A DNA stretch of 64,000 bases, taken from assembly GCF_054482595.1 (NCBI RefSeq), contig NZ_CM137008.1. One strand, given 5' to 3'. A model generated the notes under the pieces. The model saw only the letters and a program-made list of their open reading frames with translations, made no database searches and was not told where the DNA came from. Each line of letters opens with the position of its first letter. Within the stretch, counting starts at the first letter, position 1. The position numbers and the translations under genes were made by a program. Positions 19,438-52,417 of the stretch are shown here, one piece after another.

Positions 19438-19844
19438 AACAATTTCCCTTCATTGAATGAATGGAGATTTACCCAAAAACATTTCGGGCGGGATCGAGTA
19501 TACACAACTAAAGCATACGAATTACGGCGCGGGGAATTAGCGATGGCGTTTTAGGATAATTGGAATGAATATCAAATATAAGTTTCAACTTATATTTAAA
19601 TAACAATAAAAATCATAAACTTAAAATAAAAACAAAAGTAATTAATCTGCGTATTTTCCGAAATAAACAACGATTAAAAATCTATTTTAGGATTAACCTC
19701 ACGGTATGATTTCCGTTAAATCACAGACAAGGGGATTTATCTGATAAAACAATGCCGACATAACGTCGGCATTGTTATTAAGGTTATTTAATCAATCGTG
19801 CTATGCATTAATTGCCGAATACGATGTACATATCGGCATCGACC

Positions 19845-19940
<96 letters not shown>

Positions 19941-21599: not shown

Positions 21600-21839
21600 T
21601 AGCAATACTCTTCTGATTTTGAGAATTGTGACTTTGGAAGATTGTAGCGCCAGTCACAGAAAAATGTGATGGTTTTAGTGCCGTTAGCGTAATGTTGAGT
21701 GTAAACCCTTAGCGCAGTGAAGCATTTATTAGCTGAACTACTGACCGCCAGGAGTGGATGAAAAATCCGCATGACCCCGTCGTTGACAACCGCCCCGCTC
21801 ACCCTTTATTTATAAATGTACTACCTGCGCTAGCGCAGG

Positions 21840-22110
21840 CCAGAAGAGGCGCGTTGCCCAAGTAACGGTGTTGGAGGAGCCAGTCCTGTGATAACACCTG
21901 AGGGGGTGCATCGCCGAGGTGATTGAACGGCTGGCCACGTTCATCATCGGCTACAGGGGCTGAATCCCCTGGGTTGTCACCAGAAGCGTTCGCAGTCGGG
22001 CGTTTCGCAAGTGGTGGAGCACTTCTGGGTGAAAATAGTAGCGAAGTATCGCTCTGCGCCCACCCGTCTTCCGCTCTTCCCTTGTGCCAAGGCTGAAAAT
22101 GGATCCCCTG
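21840..22110 (+). promoter_or_regulatory. Lysine riboswitch (LYS element) in the lysC leader
   Basis: Long structured 5' leader directly upstream of lysC with the GAGGCGC...GGTG...GGGG elements typical of the lysC lysine riboswitch; a TTGACA -35 box lies at 21783-21788. Confidence 0.75.
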
Positions 22111-39099: not shown

Positions 39100-40316
39100 A
39101 TGATTACTCGTATCCCTCGTAGTTCTTTCTCTGCAAATATTAATAATACAGCCCAGACAAATGAACACCAAACCCTGAGTGAATTGTTTTATAAAGAACT
39201 CGAGGATAAATTTTCTGGCAAGGAGCTGGCGACGCCTCTATTAAAAAGCTTCTCAGAGAACTGTAGACAAAATGGTCGTCATATCTTTAGCAACAAGGAT
39301 TTTGTCATTAAATTTTCCACGTCCGTCTTACAAGCTGATAAGAAAGAAATTACGATAATTAATAAAAATGAAAACACGACACTCACTCAAACCATTGCTC
39401 CAATATTTGAAGAATACCTAATGGAAATTTTACCTCAACGCTCAGACACTCTTGATAAACAAGAATTAAACCTAAACTCAGTTAGAAAAGAAAAAGAATT
39501 CCCAAGAGTTAAACTTAATGATCAATGTTATTTTCCGGGGCGCCCCCAAAACCGTATAGTATGCCGACACATTGCTGCACAATATATTAATGATATTTAT
39601 CAGAATGTTGATTACAAACCCCATCAAGATGATTACTCTTCAGCTGAAAAATTTCTCACGCACTTCAACAAAAAATGCAAAAACCAGACTTTGGCGTTGG
39701 TTTCCAGCCGTCCTGAGGGGCGTTGCGTTGCTGCCTGCGGTGATTTCGGGCTAGTTATGAAAGCATATTTTGACAAGATGGAATCAAATGGCATCAGTGT
39801 TATGGCAGCCATATTACTGGTGGATAACCATGCTTTGACGGTCCGGCTAAGAATAAAGAACACAACTGAAGGATGTACCCATTACGTGGTTTCGGTTTAT
39901 GATCCTAATGTCACTAACGATAAAATAAGAATTATGAGCGAAAGCAAAGAGGATATTAAACACTATTCTCTGATGGATTTTATGAATGTAGATTATAGCC
40001 TCCTGAAATGGTCAAATGATCATATTATTAACCAATCTGTTGCAATAATTCCAGCACTTCCGAAAGAACAGCTATTGATGTTAAAAGGATCTGTGGATGA
40101 AATAACCCCTCCATTATCACCTGCAACGATGAATTTGCTAATGGCAATTGGTCAGAATCACCAACTTACGCAACTGATGATTCAACTCCAGAAAATGCCA
40201 GAACTACATAGAACAGAAATGTTGACTGCCTATAATAGTGGACATATGAACGTTATTAATACTATTTTTAACGCATTACCCACTCTTTTTAATACGTTTA
40301 AATTCGATAAAAAAAT

Positions 40317-40320
<4 letters not shown>
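39100..40320 (+). pseudogene. arpA: Ankyrin-repeat protein gene, N-terminal 406-codon segment (ShET2-like), frame-interrupted
   Basis: Low-GC ORF in the iclR-aceK interval where arpA sits in K-12; stops at a TGA that overlaps the ATG of the next ORF inside an A7 run. Confidence 0.6.
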
Positions 40321-42378
<2,058 letters not shown>

Positions 42379-42406: not shown

Positions 42407-42540
42407 GCCGGATGCGGCGTAAACGCCTTATCCAGCCTACGTTCGGCAACGGTTGTAGGCATGATAAGACGCGCAAGCGTCGCATCAGGCATCGTGCACC
42501 GATTGCCGGATGCGGCGTAAATGCCTTATCCGGCCTACAG
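42407..42540. repeat. REP/BIME cluster between aceA and aceK
   Basis: Three or four REP palindromes (TGCCGGATGCGGCGTAAACGCCTTATCCAGCCTAC...). Confidence 0.75.
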
Positions 42541-43894: not shown

Positions 43895-45496
43895 TTACGC
43901 TAACAGGCGGTAGCCTGGCAGGGTCAGGAAATCAATTAACTCATCGGAAGTGGTGATCTGTTCCATCAAGCGTGCGGCATCGTCAAAACGCCCCTGGGAG
44001 AAACGTTCTTCGCCCAGTTCGCTGGCAATGACTTTCATCTCTTCACCCAGCATCTGGCGGAACAAGGCTTTGGTCACCGGTTTGCCATTGCTCAACGTTT
44101 TTTGATGATGGATCCACTGCCAGATTGAGGTACGGGAAATTTCAGCCGTCGCCGCATCTTCCATCAGGCCATAAATCGGCACGCAGCCGTTGCCGGAGAT
44201 CCATGCTTCGATGTACTGCACTGCCACGCGAATGTTGGCGCGCATACCTTCTTCGGTGCGTTCACCATCACAAGGTGCCAGCAGCTGATCGGCAGTAATC
44301 GGCGCGTCTTGTTCGCGCATCACTTCAAGCTGATTTTTACGGGAGCCGAGAATGTCGTTGAATACCGCCATTGCCGTATCCGCAAGGCCTGGGTGAGCAA
44401 TCCATGTGCCATCGTGACCGTTATTGGCTTCCAGCGCTTTATCCGCTTTTACTTTGTTGAGCACCTGGTTATTGCGCTCTTCATCTTTGCTCGGAATAAA
44501 CGCTGCCATGCCGCCCATCGCAAAAGCACCGCGTTTATGGCAGGTTTTAATCAACAGGCGTGAGTAAGCATTCAGGAATGGTTTATCCATCGTCACTGCC
44601 TGTCTGTCTGGCAGGACGCGATCGGGATAGTTTTTCAACGTTTTGATATAGCTGAAGATGTAATCCCAACGACCGCAGTTCAGACCAACAATATGGTCAC
44701 GCAGCGCGTGAAGGATTTCATCCATCTGGAACACGGCGGGCAGCGTTTCAATCAGCAACGTCGCCTTGATGGTGCCGCGCGGCAGATTAAAGCGATCTTC
44801 TGCATAGCTGAAGACTTCGCTCCACCAGGCCGCTTCCTGCCAGGACTGGGTTTTCGGCAGATAGAAATAGGGACCGCTGCCCTTTGCCAACAGTGCCTGA
44901 TAGTTGTGGAAGAAATAGAGCGCAAAATCAAACAGGCTACCGGGGATTGCCTCACCACGCCAGGTGACATGTTTTTCCGGCAAGTGCAGACCGCGTACCC
45001 GACAAATCAAAACCGCTGGATTGGGCTTGAGCTGATAAATTTTGCCTGCTTCATTGGTATAGCTGATGGTGCCGTTAACCGCATCGCGCAGGTTAATTTG
45101 CCCGTCGATCACTTTGTTCCAGTCTGGTGCCAGTGAATCTTCGAAATCGGCCATAAAGACTTTCACATTGGCGTTCAGTGCGTTGATCACCATCTTGCGC
45201 TCAACCGGGCCAGTTATCTCGACTCGACGATCTTGTAAGTCCGCGGGAATACCACGAATTTTCCAGTCCGTATCGCGAATGGAAGCTGTTTCCGAAATAA
45301 AATCAGGCAACGTTCCGTTATCAATATCTTGCTGCTGCTGAATGCGCGCTGCCAGAAGTTTATTGCGTTGTGGCGTAAAATGCGTCACCAGCTCAGTCAG
45401 AAATTCTACCGCTTCGGCAGTAAGAATTTGCTTCTCCTGCTCGCCATACGGCCTTATGAAAGCCAGTTCATCGGTTGTTGTTGCCTGTTCAGTCAT
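43895..45496 (-). CDS. aceB: Malate synthase A
   Basis: AceB start [13 protein letters not shown] at codon 7 of the track ORF gives 533 aa. Confidence 0.97.
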
Positions 45497-45690
45497 CGTG
45501 CAGCTCCTCGTCATGGATCCGAAAACTTCCCCACTGTGAACGAAGGATCGTTGTGCGCTTTTCGTTCAGCACAACTAAGACTACTCATTTAAAATACAAA
45601 ATCAAAAACAATTTCCATTTTAATTAAAAATACTTGATAACTTATTGATAACAATATGAATAAAATTTATTCACCTCCTGAGGTGCGTTT
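45497..45690 (-). promoter_or_regulatory. aceBAK promoter region (AT-rich; expected IclR/IHF sites)
   Basis: Very AT-rich 5' region directly upstream of aceB; individual sites not resolved by eye. Confidence 0.4.
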
Positions 45691-45764: not shown

Positions 45765-46694
45765 TTAATCCAGCGTTGGATTCATGTGCCGTAGATCGTA
45801 TGGCGTGATCTGATAGACGTAATAGTTGAGCCAGTTGGTAAACAGCAAATTACCGTGACTACGCCAGCTCGCTCGCGGTGTATTTTGCGGATCATTGTGC
45901 GGGAAATAGTTATACGGTACTTCCGGGCCTAGTCCGGCTTCCACATCGCGGAAATATTCCTGCGCCAGCGTTTGCGCATCATATTCGGGATGGCCCGTCA
46001 CAAAGGCAATGCGCTTATCTTTGCTGGCAAACAGATATGCATCCCCTTCTTCCGTCTCTGCCAGAATTTCCAGATCGGTGTAATCACGAATCAACGCTGC
46101 CGGAAAGTCAGCATAGCGCGAATGTGGTGCCAGGAATGAATCATCAAAGCCACGCGTCAGAAGCGCATGAGGATGGAGAATATGATGCTCGTAAACGCCA
46201 GAGAGTTTGTCGGTGCGAGTTTGCTTAGGAATGCCGTAGAGGATATTGAGCGCGGCCTGTACCGCCCAGCAGACAAACAGCGTCGAGGTGACGTGATCTT
46301 TCGACCACTCCAGCACCTGTTTGATCTGCGGCCAGTAAGCGACATCATTAAACTCCACCAGGCCCAGCGGCGCACCGGTTACAATCAGACCGTCAAAGTT
46401 CTGTTCCTGAATATCTTCAAAGTTACAGTAGAAGTTGTTCAGATGCTCTGCGGGCGTGTTGCGCGATTCACGGGAATCGATGCGCAACAGCTGAATATCG
46501 ACCTGCAAAGGTGAGTTTGAAAGCAGGCGCAGAAACTGATTTTCAGTTTCAATCTTCTTCGGCATCAGGTTAAGGATCAGAACCTTAAGTGGACGAATTT
46601 CCTGACCAGACGCACGAGAAGTTGTCATCACAAAGACGTTTTCTTCACGCAAGAAATTGACGGCGGGTAGCTCGTCCGGCACACGAATAGGCAT
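45765..46694 (-). CDS. metA: Homoserine O-succinyltransferase
   Basis: 309 aa; [28 protein letters not shown]. Confidence 0.97.
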
Positions 46695-46711
46695 AACCTG
46701 ATTACCTCACT

Positions 46712-46745
46712 ACATACGCTTATACGTTTAGACATCCAGATAGCT
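46712..46745 (-). promoter_or_regulatory. Putative MetJ operator (tandem met boxes) upstream of metA
   Basis: The - strand reads ..GGATGTCTAAACGTATAAGCGTATGT.., consecutive 8-bp units resembling the AGACGTCT met-box consensus. Confidence 0.45.
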
Positions 46746-46850
46746 GAAGATAACCAGAAAATTTGCCAATGTCGAGCCTGCATGTTGAAGGTGAGAAAGT
46801 TTCAAGGAAAAGGCTACGTTAGAATATAAGAATGACGAAAAGGAGAGAAA

Positions 46851-47294
46851 ATGGTTATTAGTATTCGCCGCTCACAGCATGAGGAAGGGGAGGAACTCGT
46901 TGCGATTTGGTGTCGATCTGTCGATGCCACCCACGATTTTTTATCAGCAGAGTATCGGGCCGAGCTGGAAGAGCTGGTTCGTTCCTTTCTGCCGGAAGCA
47001 CCGTTGTGGGTCGCGGTTAATGAACGGGATCAGCCGGTTGGGTTTATGTTGTTAAGTGGGCAGCATATGGATGCGCTGTTTATCGATCCTGATGTGCGCG
47101 GCTGCGGCGTGGGTCGGATGCTGGTGGAGCATGCGCTCTCGATGGCACCGGAACTGACAACCAACGTTAATGAGCAAAATGAGCAGGCGGTTGGGTTCTA
47201 TAAGAAGGTGGGTTTTAAGGTTACGGGACGCTCTGAGGTGGACGATTTGGGGAAACCGTATCCGTTGCTGAATCTGGCGTATGTGGGGGAATAA
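46851..47294 (+). CDS. yjaB: GNAT-family N-acetyltransferase
   Basis: 147 aa with acetyl-CoA-binding motif (RGCGVGRMLVEHA); divergent from metA. Confidence 0.9.
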   Translation: MVISIRRSQHEEGEELVAIWCRSVDATHDFLSAEYRAELEELVRSFLPEAPLWVAVNERDQPVGFMLLSGQHMDALFIDPDVRGCGVGRMLVEHALSMAPELTTNVNEQNEQAVGFYKKVGFKVTGRSEVDDLGKPYPLLNLAYVGE

Positions 47295-47361
47295 GCCGCC
47301 CCTGCCGTGCCTGCCCAGGCTGGAGAAGACGCGCCAGCGTCGCACCCGGCATTTTTTTCAC

Positions 47362-47393
47362 CAACGCAAAAAGGCCATCGTGACTGATGGCCT
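47362..47393 (-). terminator. rrnE operon terminator downstream of 5S rRNA
   Basis: AGGCCATC-loop-GATGGCCT hairpin followed by a T-run on the - strand, 14 nt downstream of the 5S 3' end. Confidence 0.65.
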
Positions 47394-47406
47394 TTCGCTT
47401 AATTTG

Positions 47407-47526
47407 ATGCCTGGCAGTTCCCTACTCTCGCATGGGGAGACCCCACACTACCATCGGCGCTACGGCGTTTCACTTCTGAGTTCGGCATGGGGTCAGGTGG
47501 GACCACCGCGCTAAGGCCGCCAGGCA
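47407..47526 (-). rRNA. rrfE: 5S ribosomal RNA
   Basis: 120-nt reverse-complement match to E. coli 5S rRNA (TGCCTGGCGGCC...GGAACTGCCAGGCAT). Confidence 0.98.
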
Positions 47527-47618
47527 AATTCTGTTTTATCAGACCGCTTCTGCGTTCTGATTTAATCTGTATCAGGCTGAAAATCTTCTCTCATCCGCCA
47601 AAACATCTTCGGCGTTGT

Positions 47619-50521
<2,903 letters not shown>

Positions 50522-50714
50522 TCACAACCCGAAGATGTTTCTTTCGATTCATCATCGTGTTGCGAAAATTTGAGAGACTCACGAACAACTCTCGTTGTTC
50601 AGTGTTTCAATTTTCAGCTTGATCCAGATTTTTAAAGAGCAAATATCTCAAACATCACCCGAAGATGAGTTTTGAGATATTAAGGTCGGCGACTTTCACT
50701 CACAAACCAGCAAG

Positions 50715-50790
50715 TGGCGTCCCCTAGGGGATTCGAACCCCTGTTACCGCCGTGAAAGGGCGGTGTCCTGGGCCTCTAGACGAAGGGGAC
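50715..50790 (-). tRNA. gltV: tRNA-Glu (anticodon UUC) in the 16S-23S spacer
   Basis: Reverse complement equals GTCCCCTTCGTCTAGAGGCCCAGGACACCGCCCTTTCACGGCGGTAACAGGGGTTCGAATCCCCTAGGGGACGCCA. Confidence 0.97.
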
Positions 50791-50875
50791 GTATCAGTCT
50801 GCTTCGCAAGACGCCTTGCTTTTCACTTTCTATCAGACAATCTGTGTGAGCACTTCAAAGAACGCTTCTTTAAGG

Positions 50876-52417
<1,542 letters not shown>

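What the first reader, a model, noticed from the sequence alone, without database searches (positions are those of the whole stretch)
47295..47406. yjaA is absent: only 112 bp separate yjaB from the rrfE 5S rRNA gene
In K-12 the small stress-response gene yjaA (b4011) lies between yjaB (b4012) and the 3' end of rrnE. Here the yjaB stop at 47294 is followed directly by the rrnE terminator hairpin and the 5S gene at 47407, leaving no room for a coding sequence. yjaA is a Clermont marker, present in K-12 and B2 strains and absent from many others, so this is a lineage indicator.
Basis: partly seen in the sequence, partly recalled or inferred. Interest (0 to 1): 0.35.

Follow-up and report, generated by a model that had tools for sequence, protein, structure and literature searches.

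The report
E. coli locus lacking yjaA marker
This E. coli carries the common yjaA-less version of the short gap between the yjaB gene and the rrnE ribosomal RNA operon, which is a long-known strain-typing polymorphism and therefore ordinary.

Summary
yjaB ends at 47294 and the 120-nt 5S gene of rrnE starts at 47407, leaving 112 bp that cannot hold a gene. The K-12 order rrfE-yjaA-yjaB-metA-aceB is correct. No YjaA homologue occurs anywhere in the 64-kb window.

yjaA is a well-known Clermont marker. It is present in 2594 of 5426 complete E. coli genomes. A yjaA-less yjaB-5S junction is present in 2811, so the two states cover almost all genomes.

One correction: this is not a clean deletion of yjaA from a K-12-like sequence. 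The whole interval is non-homologous between the two alleles, from the last yjaB codon to 7 nt past the 5S gene. The window's 112 bp consist of:
- about 24 nt of junction sequence;
- a decayed REP element;
- an rrnB-T2-type terminator hairpin fused directly to the 5S end.

A third allele also carries the 168-bp T1 module.

Both states are old. yjaA sits directly after a 5S gene and next to metA from Pectobacterium to Salmonella salamae. yjaA-less junctions occur in other Escherichia species.

arpA, a second Clermont marker, lies in the window and types positive. The partial profile arpA+ yjaA- excludes B2 and F. chuA and TspE4.C2 are outside the window. Interest is low.

The parts
46851..47294 (+). 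yjaB (GNAT lysine acetyltransferase), convergent with rrnE. The last codon is GAA (E) instead of K-12 GCG (A), and the allele break begins at 47290.
   Evidence: ORF, NCBIfam PRK10514, Pfam GNAT; 18 of 444 nt differ from K-12, none between 47119 and 47289, then a break at 47290.
47295..47318 (.). Junction sequence specific to the yjaA-less alleles (GCCGCCCCTGCCGTGCCTGCCCAG...).
   Evidence: Aligns only with the other yjaA-less yjaB-rrfE junctions (strain 98198, FY10, Escherichia sp. E1V33). It does not align with rrnA, rrnB or the K-12 rrnE flank.
47319..47350 (-). Decayed REP (palindromic unit): GCCGGGTGCGACGCTGGCGCGTCTTCTCCAGC.
   Evidence: It has 3 mismatches to a 32-nt REP pattern, with 0 matches expected by chance. 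The two other window matches fall inside Rfam naRNA4 (REP-derived) hits. It is 95% identical to the REP between mobB and rrfA of K-12-type genomes.
47370..47395 (-). Intrinsic terminator of rrnE, homologous to rrnB T2. The stem is AAAGGCCATC/GATGGCCTTT with a 6-nt loop, followed on the rRNA strand by TTGCG. Its symmetry means it could also stop yjaB transcripts.
   Evidence: Hairpin present in the minimum-free-energy and centroid folds. The consensus scan flags it on the + strand. Alignment to the K-12 rrnB T1-T2 region.
47402..47419 (.). 18-nt ATTTGATGCCTGGCAGTT (trailer plus 5S 3' end). In the T1-T2 allele this sequence occurs twice, flanking the 168-bp T1 module. The window has the single, fused copy.
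   Evidence: alignments A2, A4. Record spans of 469-481 against 300-314 nt.
47407..47526 (-). rrfE, the 5S rRNA gene (120 nt). It has two substitutions relative to K-12 rrfE at 47513-47514.
   Evidence: Rfam RF00001, 93.2 bits, at 47409-47524. Sequence reading. Alignment.
47619..52417 (-). The rest of rrnE: 23S 47619-50521, tRNA-Glu 50715-50790, 16S 50876-52417.
45765..46694 (-). metA, the conserved flank of the locus across Enterobacterales.
40653..41052 (.). Clermont aceK-arpA amplicon (AceK.f / ArpA1.r, exactly 400 bp). This is the second lineage marker in the window and types arpA+.
   Evidence: In-silico PCR with 0 mismatches. The primers were validated on K-12 loci and against the EzClermont primer table.

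Best explanation
The window carries the yjaA-negative allele of the rrnE-yjaB intergenic region, one of three common alleles at this site in E. coli. It is a natural, old polymorphism. It is not a fresh deletion, a relocation or an assembly artefact.

Anatomy (shown). After the yjaB stop come about 24 nt of junction sequence, then a decayed REP element, then an rrnB-T2-type hairpin terminator joined directly to the 3' end of the 5S gene.

Function (inferred from homology to the characterised rrnB T2 and from the fold). rrnE transcription on the - strand stops at this hairpin. The near-symmetrical hairpin and the REP probably also end the convergent yjaB transcript.

Origin of the short form (inferred). 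It relates to the T1-T2 allele by loss or gain of a 168-bp module between two copies of an 18-nt repeat (5S 3' end plus trailer). This could happen by unequal recombination or by conversion between rrn operons.

Relation to the yjaA+ allele. That allele (520 bp, with its own different terminator plus yjaA) is a non-homologous alternative haplotype. The two are swapped as cassettes by homologous recombination, using the rRNA operon and yjaB/metA as arms.

Consequence. The strain lacks the small YjaA stress protein and types yjaA-negative. Combined with arpA+, this leaves phylogroups A, B1, D or E, most likely B1.
For: Anatomy and coordinates.

No yjaA in the window: (tBLASTn best E = 0.63; no primer sites).

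Non-homology of the two intervals: the alignment is fragmentary, and blastn finds nothing in the spacer.

Population frequency: yjaA is in 2594 of 5426 complete genomes, with a median of one copy. A yjaA-less junction covering at least 80% of the query is in 2811 genomes, by two independent queries. Every sampled yjaA+ row has yjaA annotated between yjaB and rrf (14 of 14; 28 of 28).

Identical junction in other genomes: a 921-bp query (46700-47620) is 100% identical in E. coli O178:H19 2012C-4431. The 81-nt spacer query is at least 99% identical in 501 genomes.

Three alleles: in a 60-row spread (59 informative rows) there were about 22 short, 9 T1-T2 and 28 yjaA+.

Age of the absence allele: Escherichia sp. 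E1V33 and MOD1-EC7003 have the same spacer at about 85% identity. Salmonella, Klebsiella, Citrobacter and Pseudocitrobacter have yjaB, then REP-like sequence, then a T2-type hairpin, then 5S.

Age of the presence allele: yjaA lies immediately after 5S plus a terminator and before (yjaB-)metA-aceB in Kosakonia, Phytobacter, Superficieibacter, S. enterica subsp. salamae, a MAG, C. youngae and Pectobacterium. YjaA identity there is 43-72% while MetA is 83-94%.

Cassette exchange: in E. whittamii Sa2BVA5, the stretch from the metA-yjaB intergenic region to rrfE is 96.8-100% identical to K-12, while metA and aceB are 93.5% and 92.3%.

Lineage: the arpA amplicon is intact. O153/O178:H19 STEC are typed B1 in PMC7874142.
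Against: - Absence from the rest of the genome cannot be tested with a 64-kb window.
- Which state is ancestral for E. coli is not resolved. Deep synteny favours old presence, while non-coli Escherichia species favour old absence.
- Terminator activity is inferred, not measured. The consensus scan flagged the hairpin on the + strand only, because its longest stem absorbs part of the U-run on the rRNA strand.
- The fold of the whole spacer is not more stable than shuffles (z = -1.1 and -1.7).
- B1 rests on nearest-neighbour strains, not on chuA or TspE4.C2. The 24-kb stretch 20000-44000 is 100% identical to several genomes of unknown phylogroup.
Confidence: 0.9

Rival explanations
1. Recent simple deletion: the lineage descended from a K-12-like yjaA+ ancestor and lost yjaA through one deletion between the rrnE terminator and yjaB.
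For: The gene is missing and both flanks are intact. The 3' 171 nt of yjaB are identical to K-12 right up to the break.
Against: A deletion would leave K-12-type sequence on both sides. Instead the terminator itself is different (T2-type against CCCCGGTCCATAAGGCCGGGG) and none of the 112 bp aligns to the 520-bp K-12 interval. The same spacer is found at about 85% identity in other Escherichia species and in 2811 genomes at 78-100% identity, so it is old.
Confidence: 0.04
2. Foreign acquisition: absence is the ancestral E. coli state, and the yjaA+ allele is a comparatively recent import from another enterobacterial genus.
For: Three non-coli Escherichia lineages lack yjaA at the site (E1V33, MOD1-EC7003 and the ~92%-identical 'E. 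coli' SCPM-O-B-8794). The fourth, E. whittamii, has it only through an import from E. coli. yjaA is 45% G+C against 50-54% in the flanks. Distribution among genera is patchy.
Against: No close donor is known: the best non-Escherichia YjaA is 72% identical. yjaA differs by about 2% between K-12 and B2 strains, as expected for vertical divergence within the species. The yjaB flank of the yjaA+ allele is native up to the junction. yjaA occupies this exact site as far out as Pectobacterium.
Confidence: 0.25
3. Relocation: yjaA is present in this genome but has moved elsewhere.
For: Only 64 kb can be inspected. A few genomes have 2-3 yjaA matches and one match is on a plasmid.
Against: There is no hit in the window. 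In 5426 genomes yjaA has a median of one copy. The yjaA+ count (2594) plus the yjaA-less-junction count (2811) sums to 5405, leaving essentially no room for genomes with both. All sampled yjaA copies sit between yjaB and rrf.
Confidence: 0.02
4. Assembly artefact: the junction is a collapse or mis-join at the repeated rRNA operon.
For: rRNA operons are classic assembly break points, and the T2 trailer and REP are shared with rrnA and rrnB.
Against: The junction is identical base for base in independent complete genomes. The junction-specific 24 nt link yjaB to the trailer in all of them.
Confidence: 0.01

Closest known systems
Clermont yjaA marker (triplex PCR 2000, quadruplex PCR 2013; in-silico ClermonTyping and EzClermont)
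   Same: This is the same locus and the same presence/absence polymorphism. The published primer pair yjaA.1b/2b hits K-12 (211-bp product) and has no site in the window.
   Different: Nothing differs biologically. Those papers treat yjaA as a binary marker. Here the negative allele is dissected into junction, REP and T2 terminator, and a third (T1-T2) allele is distinguished.
rrnB T1-T2 terminator region of E. coli K-12 (the terminator cassette used in many expression vectors)
   Same: The window's hairpin and trailer (CAAATTAAGC..AAGGCCATC...GATGGCCTTTTTGCGTT) align to rrnB T2. The T1-T2 allele of rrnE aligns to the whole rrnB T1, 5S-end fragment and T2 block.
   Different: In the window T1 and the 5S-end fragment are missing, so T2 follows the 5S gene directly. 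The loop sequence differs (AGTCAC against CTGACG), and homology to rrnB ends right after the U-run.
rrnA 3' flank (rrfA-mobB) of K-12-type genomes
   Same: It shares the T2 hairpin and also the REP beyond it (43 nt, 95% identical). This shows that the REP+T2 trailer is a module shared among rrn operons.
   Different: rrnA keeps the T1 module, and the sequence next to the neighbouring gene (mobB against yjaB) is unrelated.
REP / BIME palindromic units
   Same: An imperfect 32-nt palindrome matches a common REP sequence, and other copies in the window coincide with Rfam naRNA4 hits.
   Different: This is a single, mutated unit (GGATG to GGGTG; TTATCCGGC to TTCTCCAGC), so the stem is weakened. 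It does not reach the Rfam gathering score.

Membership tests
Clermont yjaA-negative genotype | No amplicon with primers yjaA.1b / yjaA.2b (211 bp in K-12) | tested here: met
   No site with 2 or fewer mismatches for either primer, or for the 2000 primer pair, in the window. Both pairs hit K-12 L001 with 0 mismatches. Primer sequences agree with the EzClermont table.
Clermont yjaA-negative genotype | No YjaA-coding sequence at the rrfE-yjaB locus or elsewhere in the genome | tested here: inconclusive
   Met for the locus and the 64-kb window. The rest of the genome is not available. Population counts make relocation very unlikely.
E. coli phylogroup B1 (quadruplex arpA+ chuA- yjaA- TspE4.C2+) | arpA amplicon present (400 bp, AceK.f / ArpA1.r) | tested here: met
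   The primers sit at 41033-41052 and 40653-40672 with 0 mismatches, giving a 400-bp product.
E. coli phylogroup B1 (quadruplex arpA+ chuA- yjaA- TspE4.C2+) | yjaA amplicon absent | tested here: met
E. coli phylogroup B1 (quadruplex arpA+ chuA- yjaA- TspE4.C2+) | chuA absent and TspE4.C2 present | not testable with these tools
   Neither locus lies in the window: no primer sites, which is expected because they map elsewhere. Only indirect support exists. The junction is identical to an O178:H19 STEC, and O153/O178:H19 STEC are typed B1 in PMC7874142.
rrnB-T2-type intrinsic terminator | G+C-rich hairpin followed by a U-run on the rRNA strand, just downstream of the 5S gene | tested here: met
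   GGCCAUC-loop-GAUGGCC with flanking A/U pairs, then UUUUUGCGUU, 11 nt after the 5S end. It is present in the minimum-free-energy and centroid structures.
rrnB-T2-type intrinsic terminator | Sequence homology to K-12 rrnB T2 | tested here: met
   Alignments A2 and A4: trailer, stem and U-run are conserved, and only the loop and two stem-flanking bases differ.
rrnB-T2-type intrinsic terminator | Termination of transcription in vivo or in vitro | not testable with these tools
   This needs Term-seq, 3' RACE or in-vitro transcription.
YjaA family stress response protein (NCBIfam NF041448) | A protein scoring above the family cutoff (125 bits) | tested here: not met
   K-12 YjaA scores 177 bits. 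No ORF or translated frame of the window resembles it. The family member is absent here.
REP palindromic unit | Match to a REP sequence and an imperfect palindrome, with related copies elsewhere | tested here: met
   3 mismatches in 32 nt against a pattern recalled from memory, with 0 matches in 100 shuffles. The other two matches lie in Rfam naRNA4 hits. A 95% identical copy lies next to rrnA.

The most novel reading that the evidence does not exclude
The rrnE-(yjaA)-yjaB interval may be a very old presence/absence polymorphism that crosses species boundaries in Enterobacterales. It would persist because either allele can be swapped in as a cassette by homologous recombination, with the rRNA operon and yjaB/metA as arms. 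The E. whittamii import of the K-12-type allele is an example. If so, yjaA status records the local recombination history of this site rather than the phylogeny of the genome, and part of the known Clermont mistyping would come from this hot spot.
Probability: 0.4. Interest if true: 0.3.

Novelty: already known. Interest (0 to 1): 0.1.

Why it matters
The practical value is strain typing. With arpA+ in the same window, a yjaA-negative call excludes phylogroups B2 and F and the yjaA+ profiles (C, part of A, clade I), and it fits B1. The strain also lacks a small protein reported to aid tolerance to acid, peroxide and cadmium (Lee et al., cited in PMC3050900). The added anatomy is a modest clarification for people who use or design yjaA-based typing: three alleles, a terminator swap, and recombinational exchange. 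It is not a discovery.

Tried and rejected
1. I aligned the 112-bp spacer to the 520-bp K-12 interval to find deletion end points. Both MAFFT and a global aligner produced only scattered chance matches, so I dropped the simple-deletion model.

2. I tried to count the T1-T2 allele with a junction-specific 197-nt query. The count of 1968 genomes is inflated by the homologous rrnA-mobB flank, so I used record spans in a 60-row spread instead. The resulting proportions are approximate.

3. Megablast with the 81-nt spacer found only 1843 genomes. This undercounted divergent alleles, and blastn raised the figure to 2811.

4. I looked for a divergence gradient in yjaB towards the junction as a recombination scar. 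There is none: mismatches cluster in the 5' two-thirds, and the last 171 nt are identical to K-12.

5. Completing the phylogroup was not possible. chuA and TspE4.C2 are not in the window, and the tools cannot query one chosen genome.

6. The context look-up for the Pseudomonas YjaA-like protein P0086 returned nothing.

7. Two literature searches failed on term syntax.

8. G+C content of yjaA (45%) is low in every host and does not discriminate between origins.

Full report
**Observation**

The window holds aceB (43895-45514, -), metA (45765-46694, -) and yjaB (46851-47294, +), followed by an rRNA operon on the - strand:
- 5S: Rfam 47409-47524; the full 120 nt by sequence reading is 47407-47526.
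- 23S: 47619-50521.
- tRNA-Glu: 50715-50790.
- 16S: 50876-52417.

In the RefSeq genome that is 100% identical over 46700-47620 (E. coli O178:H19 2012C-4431), purH and purD follow the 16S gene, so the operon is rrnE. The gap between the yjaB stop and the 5S gene is exactly 112 bp. The only ORFs touching it overlap yjaB or the 5S gene.

tBLASTn of K-12 YjaA against all 64 kb gives nothing (best E = 0.63). The K-12 interval has no blastn match beyond chance words.

**What the 112 bp are**

Aligning the window to K-12 shows identity through yjaB up to 47289 and again from 7 nt outside the 5S gene. Between those points there is no real alignment. Even the last yjaB codon (E against A) and the rrnE terminator differ. 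This is therefore not yjaA cut out of a K-12-like sequence.

The spacer instead aligns with three other sequences:
- Other yjaA-less rrnE junctions.
- The 3' trailer of K-12 rrnB, whose T2 terminator it matches.
- The 3' trailer of rrnA next to mobB, which shares both T2 and the REP beyond it (43 nt, 95% identical).

The order of elements after the yjaB stop is:
- About 24 nt found only in yjaA-less junctions.
- A decayed REP at 47319-47350. It has 3 mismatches to a 32-nt REP pattern, with 0 matches in shuffles. The two other matches in the window lie in Rfam naRNA4 hits.
- A T/A-rich stretch.
- The T2-type hairpin at 47370-47395.
- The trailer GCTTAATTTG, which abuts the 5S gene.

**A third allele**

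Some genomes (for example strain 98198, EAEC 042 and a BL21 derivative) have the same junction, REP and T2. They then add a 14-nt fragment of the 5S 3' end and the rrnB-type T1 terminator before the real 5S gene. That interval is 282 bp.

The extra 168 bp is bounded by two copies of ATTTGATGCCTGGCAGTT. The window has the fused single copy at 47402-47419. The short and long forms can interconvert by unequal recombination between these repeats or by conversion from rrnA or rrnB. This step is inferred.

**How common the alleles are**

- yjaA is found in 2594 of 5426 complete E. coli genomes (47.8%), nearly always as one chromosomal copy.
- A yjaA-less junction covering at least 80% of the query is found in 2811 genomes (51.8%), by two independent queries.
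- The two counts sum to 5405 and so account for almost every genome.
- In every sampled yjaA+ row, yjaA is annotated between yjaB and rrf.
- A 60-row spread (59 informative rows) gives roughly 37% short form (as here), 15% T1-T2 and 47% yjaA+. These are sample estimates from a biased database.
- The 81-nt spacer is at least 99% identical to the window's in 501 genomes, including O111:H8 and other STEC strains.

**Age and direction**

Outgroup loci were fetched with YjaB and analysed.

Evidence that the absence allele is old:
- Salmonella diarizonae and arizonae, Klebsiella, most Citrobacter, Pseudocitrobacter and Phytobacter massiliensis all have yjaB, then REP-like sequence, then a T2-type hairpin, then 5S, with no yjaA.
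- Escherichia sp. E1V33 and MOD1-EC7003 have the window-type spacer at about 85% identity.

Evidence that yjaA is also old at this site:
- YjaA homologues sit at exactly this position, right after a 5S gene and its terminator and before (yjaB-)metA-aceB.
- This holds in Kosakonia, Phytobacter diazotrophicus, Superficieibacter, S. enterica subsp. salamae, an unnamed MAG, Citrobacter youngae and Pectobacterium.
- YjaA is 43-72% identical to K-12 where MetA is 83-94%.

Both states therefore predate E. coli, and I cannot say which is ancestral for the species. The yjaA+ allele shows no sign of recent foreign import. The yjaB flank is native up to the junction, and yjaA differs by about 2% between K-12 and B2 strains.

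**Exchange by recombination**

In E. whittamii Sa2BVA5, aceB and metA are 92.3% and 93.5% identical to K-12. The stretch from the metA-yjaB intergenic region through yjaB and yjaA to rrfE is 96.8-100% identical. That is an imported E. coli segment carrying the yjaA+ allele.

Within E. coli, yjaB is unusually diverse: 94-96% between alleles, against 98-99% for flanking genes. This supports cassette swapping through the conserved arms. It also matches the warning in the ClermonTyping paper that horizontal transfer of a target fragment alters the typing result (PMC6113867).

**Lineage reading**

yjaA is one of the four quadruplex targets (PMC6113867, PMC7656184). arpA, another target, lies in this window. 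The AceK.f/ArpA1.r amplicon is intact and exactly 400 bp (40653-41052), while the yjaA primers have no site.

From my knowledge of the Clermont 2013 scheme, arpA+ yjaA- leaves A, B1, D or E and excludes B2 and F and the yjaA+ profiles. The identical junction in an O178:H19 STEC points to B1, because O153/O178:H19 STEC are typed B1 in PMC7874142. chuA and TspE4.C2 are outside the window, so the assignment is not complete.

**Verdict**

The finding is real, correctly interpreted and already well known. The only additions are structural: a non-homologous allele rather than a deletion, a T2-type terminator fused to the 5S gene, a third T1-T2 allele, deep synteny of yjaA, and evidence of recombinational exchange. 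Interest is low.

Noticed in passing
window 39100-40673 (+), between iclR and aceK: arpA is a pseudogene here. It has a clean 612-nt in-frame deletion in the ankyrin-repeat region (K-12 nt 1141-1752; junction at 40239/40240) and a 1-nt deletion near 40308, so the ORF stops at 40320 (406 aa against 728). RefSeq annotates the identical gene as a frameshifted ShET2/EspL2-family effector. The Clermont arpA amplicon at its 3' end is unaffected.
   Followed up: partly
L006 (Escherichia whittamii Sa2BVA5), 626-4035: The stretch from the metA-yjaB intergenic region through yjaB and yjaA to rrfE is 96.8-100% identical to K-12, while metA and aceB are 93.5% and 92.3%. This is a recombinational import of the E. 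coli yjaA+ allele into another Escherichia species.
   Followed up: yes
L003 2096-2377 (E. coli 98198); also EAEC 042 and BL21-type genomes: A third allele of the rrnE-yjaB interval. It has the same junction, REP and T2 as the window, plus a 5S-end fragment and an rrnB-type T1 (168 bp extra). It occurs in roughly 15% of complete genomes.
   Followed up: yes
window 46851-47294: yjaB is locally hyper-diverse. It is 95.9% identical to K-12, while neighbouring genes are 98-99%. Identity between E. coli alleles is 94-96%, and mismatches cluster in the 5' two-thirds.
   Followed up: partly
L052 (Pectobacterium) and L054 (Citrobacter youngae): In these genomes yjaA lies directly next to metA with no yjaB between them. 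The C. youngae YjaA is only 43% identical to K-12 although its MetA is 93.5% identical, which suggests a mosaic history of the interval.
   Followed up: no
window 47513-47514: The 5S gene of this rrnE differs from K-12 rrfE at two adjacent bases near its 5' end (…GCGCTAAGGCCGCC… against …GCGCTACTGCCGCC…). This is probably one of the known 5S variants shared between rrn operons.
   Followed up: no
window 5949-6019, 10178-10248, 19849-19920, 42458-42535; 21836-22032; 19634-19783; 50529-50637: Other Rfam hits in the window: four naRNA4 (REP-derived) elements, a lysine riboswitch, STnc430, and StyR-44 beside the 23S gene.
   Followed up: no
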